Assembly (NCBI RefSeq): GCF_964204865.1
Contig: NC_135252.1
Coordinates: 12,586,001 to 12,650,000 of the forward strand
Direction: 5' to 3'
Source of the DNA: Styela clava
Taxonomy: Eukaryota
DNA: 64,000 bases
Shown: positions 12,001 through 21,000 of the stretch, one piece after another
Layout: each line of letters starts with the position of its first letter
How positions within the stretch are numbered: position 1 is the first letter of the stretch
Program-made: the position numbers

Positions 12001-15000
12001 ATACTATGAACATCCCAAACAAAAATTGTTCGCTATTAAAACAAATACCCATTTACTGTTGACTATTGTCCTCACTGTTTGCACCAATTGTACCACTTGC
12101 AGTACATTTATAACACTTGCACCACCATGCACCACTTAATTGGACACTATCAGCACAGTATCATTTGCTCCACTTGTAACAATTTTACCACATGTTCCAC
12201 ATGCACCAAACATACCACTCAAACCATATGTCCCACAGTATCATTTGCACCACTAGAATCACTCGTCAAATGCCTACACTACGAGAGGTCTTAAAATGAT
12301 GCCTGACATCTTAGTTTACTAATTGAATAAAAGCATATCAAGTGTATTTCCAGAAAAATATTATTAAAACATGATCATGCCTAAAGTATGAATATGATCA
12401 CCGGTAATAATTTTTCTGAGGATGATTAACCTTAGAAATTGTAACAAACTAGCAATATGGGGGATATTTCACTCCCAATTAGTCTGACATTTTTAGGCCA
12501 ATTTCCATACAGGCAGCACTAACATCCCGTGACATGTAATGGCATACTACACATTTTCCTAACACTATTAAAGAAATAAAACACAAGCTCAGCTCAAATA
12601 TGAGGATTATATATATTTGTTATTTAATGATTGCAATATATAGGGATTTTGTAACCATTTTCAGCATAATTGAAAAACACAGTACAGGTAACCACACCTA
12701 CCTATGCAGTCAGGTTCTTTGAAATATCTGTCATCTTCAAGGTAACCCAGAGCATTACAAGTGGCAAGAAGATCACTATCCATTATATCTGTGCATTACC
12801 TATACACTACCAACTATGCGAGACACAAAATACAATCAATAGAAACAATCCCATGATATTATAAAGACAGTATTGTAAAAGAATGCCAAACCAACAAAAT
12901 CTGGCCGCAATATCATAACATCGCTTGGTAGATAGTAAACAAATAGGCATGTGAAATATGATAGTCCGTCAGCTAAAGAATTACTAAGATAAAACAAAAA
13001 CTTGCTAATGTAACACAGATATACAGGGTGTTCAATAAGTCCTGTTACAATATCCAAAAAAAATAGTTCTCAATATTGTTGTAAAAAGGATTGTTTCATT
13101 TTAAAAAGTTTTTTTCATTTCATTGAATATACCTTTATTATTCGCCTACTAGTTGAACTTATACAGGACTTAATGAATACCCTGTATTTCAATAACCAAT
13201 AATCAGTTGTCTCAACAATTCGAGCTGTTCCGAACTTTTTTACCTCTGATAGCAGCACAACCCGTGGACTAATATTGAAGGACAACATTTGTTGTTTTAT
13301 CCTATTGTTGGACGAAATTACAACATTTAGTTGTTCAAATTTCATTAACCACTCCCAGTTTACAGGTATAGTACAAGAGCAGTAAAACTTGTATGATCTT
13401 CAAATGAACATTTTTAACAACTTAACTCAAATAATTAATTTTTATAAATGAAGGAACATTTTTATATCATATCTTTTTTAACCCTTTGCATTGCCCAATA
13501 ACAAACTATCCAAAATACCATTATCCAGTGCTTTTTGGTATACTGTAAATTCAGTTGTTTTCTAATTGGTACAAGATTGCAGTAATCATGGGGAAAATTT
13601 TTAAACCCCAATTTTTGAGCCCATTTTAAAAATATGATGAAAACTTAAAAAATAGAAGCAATTCCAGGAAAATATATTGAACTACTGTGTTCATTTTGCC
13701 CACATTAAATATCGCACAGATAATATTCAAATATTGCCTAAAATAGGCGTGACCATGGGTAAAGGAAATGACCTGTACATCACAGAACAATAATAAAAAA
13801 CAGGAATACTCAAGAGTATAAAATAAGTGTCACTACGCTACCGAATCAAACAAATGTATTAGTAAATGGAACATCACATTTTTAGAAAAGTTTGGTATGT
13901 TTGATTGATAATTCTGATCTTTGGACTACATACTTGACTTCAAAAATATCAACAAAATTTGAAAATAACAAGAAAAAGTATGCTCGCGCGTCACCTCACA
14001 CTCCTTATAAAATTGCAGCAAGCGGCAGTCTACCTCAATGTGAAAATTTGGGAAGAGTTTAAATAACAGCAGTCGACATAAGATTGATAGCCATGTTGAA
14101 ATATCCCTACAAGAGTGACTGTAAAAAGCTCACTATCATTAGCCACTGTATTAAAGTTGATATTTCACGCTCATCCATCAAAGCTGAAATATTTTAGGTC
14201 AAAGTCATGTTGTGTAACGTAACATTATAGTTTCAAGATTCAACTTGACTGAGTTCAACACCAGCTGATCCGTTCTCTTGATCTTCATTGTAAATGTTTT
14301 CAGCCATCTGCCACACTTGCATAATGTTATCTTCTGACACTGAACAAATTGTCCAAGGTTCATTTGGATTCCAAGAGAAGTCTGATATTTTAGAAGTATG
14401 TCCGCCGTGAACAAAAAGCAATTCAGGTGGTCCGTCCTCTGCATCTTCATTCGATTGTTCTTCTCCAATTTTACTGAGATCCCAAACGTTCAATCGTCTG
14501 TCTGTTCCACTCGACGCAAGTATCGTTTCGGTATGAGGTGACCATTGAACTTGGAATATTTCATCCTTGTGACTGTCAAATGAGTGCAACTTGAGTTTTA
14601 GATTTCGCAAATCCCATAGTGCGACGGTTTTATCAGCTGATCCAGTTGCTAAGATGAACTCACTATATGGGTTAAATGAAAGACAGTTGACTTCAGCTGC
14701 ATGAGCGCTGACAGTGTGACTTGGTTTATCAGAACTAGTAGATCTTGTGTCCCAAATCATCAAACTTTGATCATCAGCGACGGAACCAAACAAACTTTCA
14801 TGCAATAAATGCCATGCTACATCTTCAACTACAGCAGAATGGCCTCTGAAGATCCTCTTAGCATCAAGGGTCTTTTTATCTTTAGGTGCAGAATTGACGT
14901 CCCAAAGGCAAACTGTGTGATCATCTGATGCACTTAGCAAATGACCAGCAACTTGGTTATTCCATGACAAACCATAACCCTCTTTCAAATGCCCTTTTAA

Positions 15001-18000: not shown

Positions 18001-21000
18001 ACAAGAATGCCTTAATAGTCCAGTTTTATAATCCCATATATGAAGAAACCCATTCAAACATCCTGTAGCTAATAGATGTAATTTTGGAGAAAATGCAACG
18101 CATTCAACACTTTCAATATCGCTTTCTTCATCAATATTTTCCTTGTTTTCAGTTTTATTATTATTACAATTATAAGTAGCTGAAACTTTTCCTGTACTTG
18201 TGCTACTCAATTTACATGTTCCATCTACTGAAGCAGTGCCGATTAGAGTTCCATCTGCGCTGATGTTAAGGTCTGATATTCCAGCGGTATGCGCATCTTT
18301 ACCCTTGGTGTTAAAAATAATATTTGTTGTTTTTAAATCTATTCCTTTCACAGTGCCATCCCCGTATCCAATCACAGCTGTTTTACCATCTGGTAAAAAA
18401 CAACCAGATGTGGTCGATACACCATGGCTGGCAAACGTTTTACAATTATCTTTAGGAATTTGCCACATCCAACATTGACCATCATTTGTACCAGCTAAAA
18501 GTATTGGAGCGACGGGATGCCATTTAATCCACTCCAAATCGGAAGTTTCAAATTTCCATATTGAAGATTTAGATGCGATACTCCAAACTTGTATCACACC
18601 ACTCATATCTCCTGTAGCAAGAAGTGACGAATCTGCATTAAATTGAGCACAAGTTACACTGTCTTTATGGTCAACACACGTAAATAAAATTTCACCAGCG
18701 TCCAACGTCCATACATATGCAATTTCATCTTCACCACCGCTAACCACAATAGAACTGCTTTTATCTACATCAACAACAAAAACTGGCTCGTTATGTTTTT
18801 TGAATATCACCACACATTTTTCATCAATATTTTCCTCACTGTCATCATTATCATCGTCGTCATAATCAACGTCCGCATCATAATCATCTAGGGTTGTCTC
18901 TTCGATTCCATCCGCAAGAACTTCTTCATTGTTGTCTCCTAATGTTACTTCTTCAAGTACATCCTCAGCATATATAATGTCATCATTATTGTCATCATCC
19001 ATATTCTGATATTATTAAAAATGAAGAATGAATTTACGTAAAATTCGCTGCTACCCTAGGCCCTAAAAAGTAGAAAAAATAACATGTAATAACGTATCAT
19101 CCTATCATGACTTCATTTTTATCGAATACCATATTGCTCAGAAGTTTATGAAAGGTACTAAATATCAGCACCTGCAGACGAAGCCTAATACTCTAATCCT
19201 ATATGCAAAAATTCATGCTAACACAGGAATAGCCTAGATCAGTAAAAATGTGAACTTGGACACATTGAACATTCAAATGCTGATTAATATTATTTTACCT
19301 ATGCATCTGAAATGGTTAGTAATTTCAAAATTTATCAGTGCACTTTCAATTTTTACCAAGCTTTGCTTTATATTCATTCCTGGGAGCTCCCAAAGTATGT
19401 GCACCAAGATGGCGCATAACCTGAATCTAACCTGGTACACATACTATGCTCAGGTTGTGCACCATCTTGGTGCACATACTTCGGAAGCACCCATTCCTGT
19501 TTCTTATCACCTTTGACGTCAGACGGTCAGAATGTGCCAAACCAACTACCAAAAAGTGATAAATATTAAGAACTGGTAAAATGCACAATTTTTCAAATAT
19601 TCGTATTGGTGTGCAAGTGCTGGCAAGATATATACATGTGATCACATGGTTTGAAACTTATCTTGGGTCTGTAGATGTTGTCTGATGTAAGTAGCAACAT
19701 ATTATTGACAATGATCTTGAAGCTACTACTGGCAGTCTAAAAAATTATTTCTCTGTACTCTTGTATGAATGAGTTTATTTTGACTCTATAATAATTATAC
19801 ATGTGTGACAGAAGATAAATCTGTATGTTAAAAAAAATACTGAAATAATTGATGGAAACAAATACAGAAATATGTCAAATCTGATTATAGAATCAGAAGA
19901 CAAAAAATACCTCATGCAGACATGTTAGTAAATTACAAAAGTAAGGTCTAAAAACATGCAAAATTTAGGTCGAAAATAAAAATGATGAACCATTGGATCT
20001 TCATTAAAGGACTACAAATGTTGGGGTTTTCAAGCAAAATACAAACAAATGGTCAACTCAGAGTCAGAACAATCAAATTTTGGTATCAGCTTGTATGCGT
20101 GTTCTGGTGTTTGTTTGTTTTGTTGTGTTTATTTTGCATTCTTTTTAATCACATGTAAGTATTGCCCAAATGTGTTTATTTGGCTGAAAAGCATGTGTCT
20201 GACACACCATCAACTTTATTGTCATTTTTTTAAACTTGTATGTGTGACTCACTTTTTCCCATCAAACGCCCGAGGAGCCCTTTACTGCTGCTCATCGAGT
20301 CTGTTTATTATTTATAAATATATTATTTGTGTTACTTTTGGTGAAAGAGCACGTGTATTGCGCTTATAACAGTATAAACTTTATTCATACGTTTTGCTCG
20401 TTTTTCGGGCATTTATGTTATATGTTTTGTTTGTTTCATCGAGTTGTGTGTTTTCAGAATGCCGAAATAAATTGTATTTTATATAATAAAATAAGAAAAA
20501 CAGGATAAACCGAAGAAAAATTACATAGTAAGGAAAAAACAAAAAATGAATAAATAAATAAGAATCACTTGTCATACCAGCATACCGTACGGTAGTTACT
20601 GTCATATTACTGTATTAATATTTTTAACAGTCGCCAAATATCAGATATGATTTGGTAAACAAGAGCGTACAATGAAAAAAATAATTAACGTTATTGAAAA
20701 GATATCGCCAACTGATAATGATTGGAGTCGAATGCCAAATTGTCATTGTTACTAACCATATTCTGATATTAAATTAAAACACTGCCAAACTATTTGAGCC
20801 TCCGTTTATGCCGCCAGACAGCCAGACTTTAGGCAGCAAAGTAACTATATTCACTTAGTTAGGCAGAACCAGGGCTGCCACTTTTGCCTGACTAAAAACA
20901 TCTAGATTGACCCCAAAAATCATCTAGAAAATACATTTCAGCATTTAGATTTAAAGTCAATAAATTTAATGAAAGTAAACGAAACAAGAGCATATAGCGT

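What the first reader, a model, noticed from the sequence alone, without database searches (positions are those of the whole stretch)
12783..19008. Candidate four-gene SL trans-spliced operon: AAMP > ACMSD > RBBP4 > TIMELESS
Seen: four co-oriented genes with stop-to-ATG gaps of only 718, 494 and 1449 nt; three have intronless CDSs. Each ATG is closely preceded by a splice acceptor: AAMP taatatcAG|aatATG (19006); ACMSD gttttAG (17086); RBBP4 tttgctatAG (15551) or tttcttgctttcttAG (15644); TIMELESS tctcgcatAG (12814) or gcacAG (12789). Known: ascidian operons are resolved by SL trans-splicing and are enriched in single-exon genes. Inference: one precursor RNA couples a uL16 ribosome chaperone, the NAD+ branch-point enzyme ACMSD, a CAF-1/NuRD/MuvB histone chaperone and a fork-protection factor. 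That combination would tie NAD+ flux to chromatin replication.
Basis: partly seen in the sequence, partly recalled or inferred. Interest (0 to 1): 0.75.

Follow-up and report, generated by a model that had tools for sequence, protein, structure and literature searches.

The report
Possible sea-squirt operon, unproven
Four housekeeping genes sit head-to-tail in a sea-squirt (Styela) genome and may be copied into one RNA that is later cut up, a gene arrangement already well known in sea squirts, but sequence alone cannot prove it here.

Summary
The window is Styela clava DNA, or a very close relative; it is not human and has no N. On the minus strand lie AAMP (19002-17764), ACMSD (17045-16032) and RBBP4 (15537-14233), all with uninterrupted CDSs, then multi-exon TIMELESS (ATG 12783, running off the window). 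The gaps of 718, 494 and 1449 nt are exact.

"Each ATG is preceded by an acceptor" is mostly trivial, because AG occurs about every 21 nt. Only ACMSD's site at 17086 is strong. RBBP4's sites are modest. TIMELESS's two sites score at chance.

Two new lines of evidence favour co-transcription:
- The only AATAAA hexamers in the AAMP>ACMSD gap lie at its far end. One sits 22 nt before the strong AG, which is a Ciona-like "poly(A) site abuts acceptor" junction.
- All four genes and their gaps lie in one unbroken CpG-depleted domain (o/e about 0.57, against about 1.08 outside it). Its edge is about 1.25 kb upstream of AAMP. No promoter-like CpG recovery appears at the ACMSD or TIMELESS 5' ends, and only a weak one appears before RBBP4.

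No RNA evidence is available. The operon is plausible (about 0.5), is a new member of a known kind, and the proposed NAD+/replication coupling is unsupported.

The parts
17764..19002 (-). AAMP-like gene, single uninterrupted CDS (412 aa, WD40 propeller with acidic N-terminus)
   Evidence: ORF. WD40 families in Pfam. 406/412 identical to the S. clava 'angio-associated migratory cell protein-like' protein. Best named hits in tunicates, a hemichordate, a fish and cnidarians are AAMP, E 1e-106 to 1e-84.
16032..17045 (-). ACMSD gene, single uninterrupted CDS (337 aa)
   Evidence: ORF. Pfam Amidohydro_2, E 2.1e-45. Residues 1-336 align to human ACMSD 2wm1 residues 1-335, E 7.7e-155. 329/337 identical to the S. 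clava ACMSD-like protein.
14233..15537 (-). RBBP4/7-type histone-binding WD40 gene, single uninterrupted CDS (434 aa)
   Evidence: ORF. Pfam CAF1C_H4-bd, E 2e-31, plus WD40. RBBP4 chains at E about 1e-250, RBBP7 at about 1e-239.
368..12783 (-). TIMELESS gene, at least 20 coding exons. Exon 1 is 12783-12702. The gene continues beyond the window start.
   Evidence: Pfam PF04821 on exon pieces 2-5, collinear at profile positions 9-63, 64-106, 101-170 and 167-213. S. clava 'protein timeless homolog' (1274 aa) residues 1-913 map here in 20 tblastn pieces. 15 of 19 junctions resolved as GT-AG introns of 131-723 nt.
17109..17114 (-). AATAAA hexamer, the first canonical poly(A) signal after the AAMP stop (649 nt downstream)
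   Evidence: The only other hexamer in the 718-nt gap is at 17077-17072. There is no ATTAAA.
17086..17107 (-). T-rich tract plus AG: strong acceptor-like site 40 nt before the ACMSD ATG, with an ATG-free leader
   Evidence: Matrix score 5.5, 98.9th percentile of 3087 AGs. Chance of such a site is 1.4%. 133 of 3084 AGs have AATAAA at -45..-10.
19063..19084 (-). Best acceptor-like site before AAMP, 60 nt before the ATG, with an ATG-free leader.
   Evidence: Score 6.1 at 19063 against -1.9 at 19006.
15551..15665 (-). Candidate RBBP4 acceptors at 15644, 15568 and 15551
   Evidence: 15644 scores 3.5 but leaves one upstream ATG. 15568 scores 2.4 with no upstream ATG (chance 7%). 15551 scores -6.8, the 53rd percentile.
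12789..12984 (-). Candidate TIMELESS acceptors
Evidence: The only good site, 12984 (4.8), leaves a 200-nt leader with 5 upstream ATGs.
13018..13190 (.). MITE-like element in the RBBP4>TIMELESS gap. It holds that gap's only AATAAA, starting at 13139.
   Evidence: 28-nt arms, 89% complementary, 117 nt apart. Hexamer position.
1..20250 (.). Continuous CpG-depleted domain (germline-methylation signature) covering TIMELESS, RBBP4, ACMSD, AAMP, all three gaps and about 1.25 kb upstream of AAMP
   Evidence: CpG o/e is 0.57 here against 1.08 in 20250-60999. TpG and CpA are raised (1.28 against 1.10-1.13). A two-state HMM gives rates of 0.52 and 1.12.
20250..20800 (.). 5' edge of the depleted domain, CpG-rich zone: candidate position of the single promoter
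   Evidence: 18 CpG against 12.8 expected (o/e 1.41), lnLR high/low +6.1. HMM posterior 0.77-0.94.

Best explanation
AAMP, ACMSD, RBBP4 and TIMELESS are four broadly expressed housekeeping genes of a Styela genome, packed head-to-tail inside one germline-methylated transcription domain of about 20 kb.

The most likely mechanism is a Ciona-type polycistronic unit.
- Transcription starts upstream of AAMP, either close to its 5' end or near the domain edge at about 20.25-20.8 kb.
- It runs through AAMP and ACMSD, and probably on through RBBP4 and TIMELESS.
- The precursor is resolved by 3'-end cleavage and polyadenylation of the upstream cistron, together with spliced-leader trans-splicing at an acceptor just before the next ATG.

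The AAMP>ACMSD junction is the best defined. AATAAA (17114-17109) is followed after 22 nt by a T-tract and AG (17087/17086), 40 nt before the ACMSD ATG.

Shown: gene identities, order, strand, intronless CDSs, the junction motif and the CpG domain.
Inferred: co-transcription, SL addition and the promoter position.

My split of the probability is about 0.6 that at least AAMP and ACMSD are co-transcribed, and about 0.4 that all four are.
For: (1) Same strand, with tight spacing compared with the neighbourhood.
- The next upstream gene, a GLI-type zinc-finger gene (2gli E 3.4e-44), has its last ORF-like piece near 24.5 kb. That leaves about 5.5 kb before AAMP.

(2) Three consecutive uninterrupted CDSs beside a gene with at least 19 introns.
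- In Ciona, 38% of operon genes are single-exon against 15% of non-operon genes, and 60% of 5'-most operon genes are single-exon (Satou 2008, section 10 read whole).

(3) Junction 1.
- Both AATAAA hexamers of the 718-nt gap lie in its last 70 nt. The chance of both falling in the last 75 start positions is 0.011.
- One lies 22 nt before an AG scoring 5.5, the 98.9th percentile.
- A strong AG with an ATG-free leader is expected 1.4% of the time. AATAAA at -45..-10 occurs at 133 of 3084 AGs.

(4) ACMSD has no AATAAA or ATTAAA before the RBBP4 ATG.
- This matches Ciona, where 16 of 18 operon junctions lacked the hexamer (Satou 2006, passages).

(5) CpG footprint.
- The window is bimodal. 1-kb windows average 0.57 (sd 0.13) in 1-20250 and 1.08 (sd 0.18) in 20250-61000, where only 0.8% fall below 0.7.
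- Windows of +-500 nt around the ATGs give ACMSD 0.47, RBBP4 0.50 and TIMELESS 0.38, with lnLR high/low of -6.2, -6.4 and -8.0.
- The three gaps together hold 36 CpG against 57.5 expected, P 8e-5 under the CpG-rich state.
- In Ciona, gene bodies of broadly expressed genes are methylated. Promoters and TSSs are unmethylated and 'incompatible with DNA methylation' (Suzuki 2013, passages).
- Promoter windows of -499..+500 show uniformly high CpG scores there (Okamura 2011, passages).
Against: - No RNA data of any kind were available. SL addition, poly(A) sites and precursors are all untested.
- I found no paper describing SL trans-splicing or operons in Styela.
- Ciona operons are defined by less than 100 nt, usually 0, between the mRNA 3' end and the acceptor. 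Meeting that here needs 3' UTRs of about 0.45-0.67 kb for ACMSD and AAMP, and 1.25-1.4 kb for RBBP4.
- TIMELESS has no good acceptor with an ATG-free leader. RBBP4's acceptors are modest.
- Gap 2 alone has CpG o/e 0.94 (10 against 10.6, lnLR +1.3). A small RBBP4 promoter is therefore not excluded.
- The AATAAA at junction 1 is atypical for Ciona operons (2 of 18 have it). It could simply be AAMP's ordinary terminator.
- The CpG logic borrows Ciona calibration from non-trans-spliced promoters. Okamura 2011 also says promoters 'seem to be at least partially methylated'. Suzuki 2013 found methylated gaps between convergent genes. Islands under about 300 bp are below my detection power.
- Non-operon trans-spliced Ciona genes have short outrons (mean 438 bp, peak about 100 bp; Yokomori 2016, passages). 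Own promoters would therefore fit in these gaps.
- The acceptor matrix rests on 15 cis introns of one gene.
Confidence: 0.5

Rival explanations
1. Four independent, closely packed housekeeping genes. Each gap holds a compact promoter of its own, possibly followed by a short outron and independent SL trans-splicing. The shared CpG-depleted state then reflects four abutting methylated gene bodies whose small promoters are too short to leave a detectable CpG signal.
For: - Gaps of 494-1449 nt have room for a 3' UTR plus a promoter plus an outron of about 100 nt. Ciona outrons average 438 bp and peak at about 100 bp.
- Gap 2 has CpG o/e 0.94.
- A CpG recovery at 18250-19249 (o/e 0.87, lnLR +2.1) shows that small recoveries exist inside the domain.
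- The TIMELESS and RBBP4 acceptor sites are weak.
- NCBI's S. clava proteins of the same lengths show that the genes are annotated as separate genes.
Against: - +-500-nt windows around the ACMSD, RBBP4 and TIMELESS ATGs fit the depleted state 500- to 3000-fold better than the CpG-rich state.
- The whole 1449-nt gap before TIMELESS is depleted (20 against 35.3).
- AAMP's first canonical poly(A) signal is only 69 nt before the ACMSD ATG. That leaves no separate promoter space unless the promoter lies inside AAMP's 3' UTR.
- Three adjacent same-strand single-exon genes would be rare at the Ciona non-operon rate of 15%.
Confidence: 0.33
2. Partial operon. AAMP and ACMSD, perhaps with RBBP4, are co-transcribed, but TIMELESS is an independent gene with its own CpG-poor promoter in the 1449-nt gap.
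For: - The junction motif is found only at AAMP>ACMSD.
- The gap before TIMELESS is two to three times longer than the others and carries a MITE-like insertion.
- No usable TIMELESS acceptor was found.
- In Ciona, four-gene operons are rare (36 of 1310) and two-gene operons are the rule (1079 of 1310).
Against: The TIMELESS 5' region is the most CpG-depleted of the four (o/e 0.38, lnLR -8.0), with HMM posterior at or below 0.13 across 12000-13750.
Confidence: 0.2
3. The acceptor-like sites before AAMP and ACMSD are ordinary cis-splice acceptors of 5'-UTR introns. They are fed by unannotated non-coding first exons further upstream, not by trans-splicing.
For: - Acceptor strength cannot tell cis from trans.
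- A 16-nt exact copy of the AAMP start context lies at 20771-20756. It is followed by ATG and a donor-like GTTAGT, inside the CpG-rich zone at the domain edge.
- If that donor were used with the AG at 19006, the reading frame would be kept. This is my reading of the sequence.
Against: - For ACMSD, an upstream exon would have to lie inside AAMP's 3' UTR or CDS.
- The 16-nt match could be chance. I estimate about 0.05 such matches expected in 9 kb.
- Beyond about 33 nt the two regions do not align.
Confidence: 0.12

Closest known systems
Ciona intestinalis/robusta SL-resolved operons (Satou 2006, 2008), e.g. the three-gene DTL-URM1-CHERP operon on chromosome 8
   Same: - Same-strand runs of unrelated housekeeping genes in an ascidian.
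- Enriched in single-exon genes, especially the 5'-most gene.
- Junction 1 here has a poly(A) signal directly before an acceptor, as expected when the upstream mRNA end abuts the trans-splice site.
- ACMSD lacks a canonical hexamer, like 16 of 18 Ciona junctions.
   Different: - Ciona operons are defined from mapped mRNA ends (less than 100 nt, mostly 0). No ends are known here.
- Four-gene operons are rare in Ciona (36 of 1310).
- The species is a stolidobranch (Styela). I found no published operon or SL data for it.
Botryllus schlosseri fuhc-sec / fuhc-tm gene pair (styelid; Nydam et al. 2013, PMC3691228)
   Same: Two same-strand genes in the same ascidian family, 227 bp apart, with a featureless gap and rare RNAs that span both genes (passages).
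   Different: No SL was found on the downstream mRNA there. The authors favoured occasional read-through. This is a warning that close spacing plus linking transcripts need not mean an SL operon.
Caenorhabditis elegans SL1-type operons without intercistronic sequence
   Same: The upstream poly(A) site is adjacent to the downstream acceptor, with a canonical AATAAA present, as cited by Satou 2006. Junction 1 here looks like this.
   Different: This is a nematode lineage. The resemblance rests on one motif pair only.
Mosaic gene-body methylation domains of Ciona (Suzuki 2013; Okamura 2011)
   Same: Bimodal CpG o/e. Broadly expressed genes are depleted, while a developmental regulator (the GLI-type gene) and intergenic DNA are not. 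Domain edges are sharp.
   Different: Methylation was not measured here. It is inferred from CpG depletion with a TpG/CpA excess.

Membership tests
Ciona-type SL-resolved operon | Member genes adjacent and on the same strand | tested here: met
   All four CDSs lie on the minus strand in the order AAMP, ACMSD, RBBP4, TIMELESS.
Ciona-type SL-resolved operon | Upstream mRNA 3' end less than 100 nt (usually 0) from the downstream trans-splice acceptor | tested here: inconclusive
   No mRNA ends are available. Indirectly, AATAAA lies 22 nt before a strong AG at junction 1. There is no comparable motif pair at junctions 2 and 3.
Ciona-type SL-resolved operon | Downstream cistrons carry the spliced leader | not testable with these tools
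   No transcript collection for this organism can be reached. Rfam found no RNA family in the window.
Ciona-type SL-resolved operon | One promoter and a polycistronic precursor | tested here: inconclusive
   The CpG-depleted domain is unbroken from about 20250 to the window start. ACMSD, RBBP4 and TIMELESS +-500-nt windows fit the depleted state (lnLR -6.2, -6.4, -8.0). Gap 2 alone has o/e 0.94. This is indirect evidence, calibrated on Ciona literature.
Ciona-type SL-resolved operon | Typical but not defining: single-exon genes, especially the 5'-most | tested here: met
   AAMP, ACMSD and RBBP4 have uninterrupted full-length CDSs. Non-coding exons cannot be excluded.
ACMSD (amidohydrolase-2 superfamily) | Full-length similarity to characterised ACMSD | tested here: met
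   Residues 1-336 align to human ACMSD residues 1-335, E 7.7e-155. Bacterial ACMSD scores about 1e-68.
RBBP4/RBBP7 (CAF-1 p48 / Caf1-55) | N-terminal histone H4-binding helix domain plus WD40 propeller | tested here: met
   PF12265 at residues 26-95, E 2e-31, plus WD40. RBBP4 scores about 1e-250, slightly better than RBBP7 at about 1e-239.
TIMELESS/Tim1 | N-terminal TIMELESS domain, collinear across exons | tested here: met
   4 of 10 exon pieces hit PF04821 in profile order. The S. clava timeless homolog carries PF04821, PF05029, PF26019 and PF27570.
AAMP (yeast Sqt1-type WD40 chaperone; the Sqt1 link is recalled) | Best hits across phyla are AAMP rather than generic WD40 proteins | tested here: met
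   Named hits from Clavelina, Ciona savignyi, Phallusia, Saccoglossus, Oryzias and cnidarians are AAMP at E 1e-106 to 1e-84. Generic WD40 proteins score 1e-41 or worse. No tree was built. The PDB search gave only generic WD40 chains among its best 60.

The most novel reading that the evidence does not exclude
A four-gene Styela operon of a looser build than the zero-spacer Ciona type. Three intronless genes would have accumulated, one behind the other, in what was once the outron of the intron-rich host gene TIMELESS. All would be driven from one promoter at the edge of a single germline-methylated domain about 1.25 kb upstream of AAMP. If so, CpG-depletion footprints would allow ascidian operons and their promoters to be mapped from genome sequence alone.
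Probability: 0.2. Interest if true: 0.5.

Novelty: new member of a known kind. Interest (0 to 1): 0.3.

Why it matters
Operons hold about a fifth of Ciona genes, so one more candidate in another ascidian is not surprising in itself. It would matter modestly in three ways.
- As a first documented operon in Styela, it would extend operon architecture to stolidobranch ascidians.
- It would test whether operons with long inter-CDS spacers exist alongside the zero-spacer Ciona type.
- The CpG-footprint argument used here, if validated with RNA and methylome data, gives a cheap sequence-only way to find promoter-less internal cistrons.

It says nothing reliable about a functional link between NAD+ metabolism and replication.

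Tried and rejected
- Rfam (gathering thresholds) and ARAGORN over the whole window found 0 RNA families and 0 tRNAs. No SL RNA gene or other RNA explains the gaps.
- Pfam on 9 ORFs between 19.4 and 24.7 kb found no family in any of the 9. I see no hidden extra cistron upstream of AAMP. The tenth query in that call, 61881-62120, is a class II aminoacyl-tRNA synthetase exon.
- Pfam on 10 further ORFs between 26 and 56 kb found only the zinc-finger piece, 1 of 10.
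- The PDB search with AAMP returned only generic WD40 chains among its best 60. AAMP identity therefore rests.
- I considered that the three intronless genes are a retrocopy cluster unrelated to operons. No poly(A) remnants were evident by eye. I did not test this further.
- Aligning the 16-nt repeat of the AAMP start context showed similarity over only about 33 nt. I rejected a larger duplication.
- Of 19 TIMELESS junctions, 4 could not be resolved by my bookkeeping. They were left out of the acceptor matrix.
- Literature searches gave nothing on Styela operons. 'Styela' + 'operon' + 'trans-splicing' returned 1 irrelevant paper. 'Styela' + 'spliced leader' returned 0. 'Styela clava' + 'operon' returned 20 papers, and the 10 listed were all irrelevant.
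- Gene order in other ascidians could not be checked. I did not use genome contigs because it holds only prokaryotes.
These include the Ciona operon lists of Satou 2006 and 2008 and the candidate-promoter lists of Yokomori 2016. They might show whether the Ciona orthologues are operonic.
- The window is not human and has no N.

Full report
**What is there**

The window has no N and is ascidian, not human.
- The AAMP and ACMSD ORFs are 406/412 and 329/337 identical to Styela clava RefSeq proteins.
- Those two proteins have consecutive accession numbers.
- The RBBP4 ORF is itself in NCBI nr/UniRef.

On the minus strand lie three uninterrupted CDSs:
- AAMP, 19002-17764, 412 aa
- ACMSD, 17045-16032, 337 aa
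- RBBP4, 15537-14233, 434 aa

TIMELESS follows. The S. clava 'protein timeless homolog' (1274 aa) maps with residues 1-913 from 12783 down to 368 in 20 tblastn pieces. I could fix 15 of 19 junctions as GT-AG introns of 131-723 nt. The gene runs off the window start.

Identities are solid.
- ACMSD aligns end to end with human ACMSD (E 7.7e-155).
- RBBP4 hits RBBP4 chains at about 1e-250 and carries the H4-binding domain.
- TIMELESS exon pieces 2-5 hit PF04821 in profile order; 4 of 10 pieces hit.
- AAMP's best named relatives in tunicates, a hemichordate, a fish and cnidarians are all AAMP.

TIMELESS was searched exon by exon. I made no joined model.

The gaps of 718, 494 and 1449 nt are exact.

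**The acceptor claim**

AG occurs 3087 times on the minus strand, about once per 21 nt. An AG shortly before an ATG is therefore expected. I built a 20-position acceptor matrix from the 15 resolved TIMELESS introns and scored every AG.

| Gene | Site | Score | Percentile or note |
|---|---|---|---|
| ACMSD | 17086 (reader) | 5.5 | 98.9th; ATG-free 40-nt leader |
| AAMP | 19006 (reader) | -1.9 | 82nd |
| AAMP | 19063 (new) | 6.1 | ATG-free 60-nt leader |
| RBBP4 | 15644 (reader) | 3.5 | 97th; leaves one upstream ATG |
| RBBP4 | 15568 (new) | 2.4 | no upstream ATG |
| RBBP4 | 15551 (reader) | -6.8 | 53rd |
| TIMELESS | 12814 (reader) | -5.5 | 61st |
| TIMELESS | 12789 (reader) | -7.1 | 51st |
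| TIMELESS | 12984 (new) | 4.8 | leaves five upstream ATGs |

Random positions in the window give these background rates for an AG within 110 nt upstream with an ATG-free leader:
- score at least 5.5: 1.4%
- score at least 2.4: 7%
- score at least -7: 53% (94% if the ATG-free condition is dropped)

So AAMP and ACMSD probably have spliced 5' ends. RBBP4 may have one. The sequence gives no such hint for TIMELESS.

**What defines an ascidian operon**

From passages of Satou 2006 and section 10 of Satou 2008:
- Ciona operons are same-strand genes whose mRNA 3' end and next trans-splice acceptor are less than 100 nt apart, usually directly abutted.
- Downstream genes carry the SL.
- There are 1310 operons holding 2909 genes. 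By size: 1079 with two genes, 185 with three, 36 with four, 8 with five and 2 with six.
- 38% of operon genes are single-exon, against 15% of other genes.
- 60% of 5'-most operon genes are single-exon.
- 16 of 18 junctions lacked AATAAA.

Stop-to-ATG gaps include the 3' UTR. They neither meet nor fail this definition.

Non-operon trans-spliced genes have outrons averaging 438 bp, with a peak near 100 bp (Yokomori 2016, passages). Separate promoters would therefore also fit in these gaps.

**New evidence 1: the AAMP>ACMSD junction**

- The 718-nt gap contains AATAAA only at 17114 and 17077, and no ATTAAA.
- The first of these is the first canonical signal after the AAMP stop, 649 nt downstream. 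It ends 22 nt before the strong AG at 17087/17086.
- AATAAA occurs once per 688 nt on this strand. It lies at -45..-10 of only 133 of 3084 AGs.
- This is the layout expected if the AAMP mRNA end abuts the ACMSD acceptor.
- ACMSD has no canonical hexamer before the RBBP4 ATG.
- RBBP4's first hexamer is 1093 nt downstream of its stop, inside a MITE-like inverted repeat at 13018-13190.

**New evidence 2: a CpG footprint**

CpG observed/expected is sharply bimodal across the window.

| Region | CpG o/e | Content |
|---|---|---|
| 1-20250 | about 0.57 | the four genes, their gaps and about 1.25 kb upstream of AAMP |
| 20250-61000 | about 1.08 | the GLI-type gene and intergenic DNA |
| 61000-64000 | about 0.45 | includes the aminoacyl-tRNA synthetase exon at 61881-62120 |

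- TpG and CpA are raised in the depleted parts, the mark of methyl-C deamination.
- A two-state HMM gives rates of 0.52 and 1.12.
- In Ciona, bodies of broadly expressed genes are heavily methylated in sperm, while promoters and TSSs are unmethylated (Suzuki 2013, passages).
- Promoter windows there have uniformly high CpG scores (Okamura 2011, passages; non-trans-spliced genes only).

Values around the four start codons and nearby:

| Window | CpG o/e | lnLR high/low |
|---|---|---|
| AAMP ATG +-500 | 0.75 | -0.85 |
| ACMSD ATG +-500 | 0.47 | -6.2 |
| RBBP4 ATG +-500 | 0.50 | -6.4 |
| TIMELESS ATG +-500 | 0.38 | -8.0 |
| 18250-19249 | 0.87 | +2.1 |
| 19250-20249 | 0.25 | -11.1 |
| 20250-20800 (domain edge) | 1.41 | +6.1 |

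This fits one promoter upstream of AAMP and none before ACMSD or TIMELESS.

The exception is gap 2. Taken alone it has o/e 0.94 (10 CpG against 10.6 expected, lnLR +1.3). A small RBBP4 promoter stays possible.

Caveats:
- Methylation was not measured.
- The calibration comes from another genus.
- Islands under about 300 bp are beyond my detection power.
- Ciona also shows methylated gaps between convergent genes.

**Verdict**

- The operon reading is plausible and is somewhat strengthened. It is best supported for AAMP>ACMSD, reasonable for RBBP4 and open for TIMELESS.
- I put co-transcription of at least the first pair at about 0.6, and of all four at about 0.4.
- The main rival is four independent compact genes.
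- The styelid Botryllus fuhc pair has a 227-bp gap and linking RNAs but no SL. It shows why RNA evidence is indispensable.
- The proposed coupling of NAD+ flux to chromatin replication has no support. Ciona operon members are not tightly co-regulated, and operons there mix unrelated housekeeping genes.
- If real, this is a new member of a known kind.

**Not checked**

- Transcripts, TSS data, methylomes and synteny in other ascidians.
- Supplementary tables of the Ciona papers, which are closed.

Noticed in passing
window 1-64000: CpG observed/expected is sharply bimodal at kilobase scale. It is about 0.57 in 1-20250 and about 0.45 in 61000-64000, against about 1.08 in 20250-61000. TpG and CpA are raised in the depleted parts. 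This looks like Ciona-style mosaic gene-body methylation in Styela.
   Followed up: yes
window 24477-42242 (minus strand; possibly further upstream): A large multi-exon GLI-type zinc-finger gene. The ORF at 32122-32610 hits five-finger GLI 2gli at E 3.4e-44 and Pfam zf-C2H2. A Q-rich ORF lies at 26207-26926. The whole gene lies in CpG-undepleted DNA, in contrast to its housekeeping neighbours.
   Followed up: partly
window 61881-62120 (minus strand): An exon of a class II aminoacyl-tRNA synthetase (Pfam tRNA-synt_2, D/K/N type, E 3e-16). By eye it looks aspartyl-tRNA synthetase-like. It lies in the second CpG-depleted domain.
   Followed up: partly
window 19381-19493: A near-perfect hairpin with 44-nt arms, 89% complementary, and a 25-nt loop, 380-490 nt upstream of the AAMP ATG. 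A perfect TGACGTCA palindrome sits just upstream at 19521-19514. It could be a foldback or MITE element, or a promoter element.
   Followed up: no
window 20745-20771 versus 18988-19014: The AAMP start-codon context is repeated 1757 nt upstream. The match is 16 nt exact and 23 of 27 overall. There it is followed by ATG and a donor-like GTTAGT, at the CpG-rich edge of the depleted domain. It could be chance, a relic duplication, or an alternative first exon.
   Followed up: partly
window 13018-13190: A MITE-like element with 28-nt terminal inverted repeats (89% complementary) in the RBBP4>TIMELESS gap. It carries that gap's only AATAAA.
   Followed up: partly
window 19250-20249: This is the most CpG-depleted kilobase of the window (7 CpG against 27.5 expected; TpG 1.67, CpA 1.48). 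It lies between the AAMP 5' end and the domain edge. No ORF there has a Pfam family. It may be transcribed outron or intron, or a methylated repeat.
   Followed up: partly
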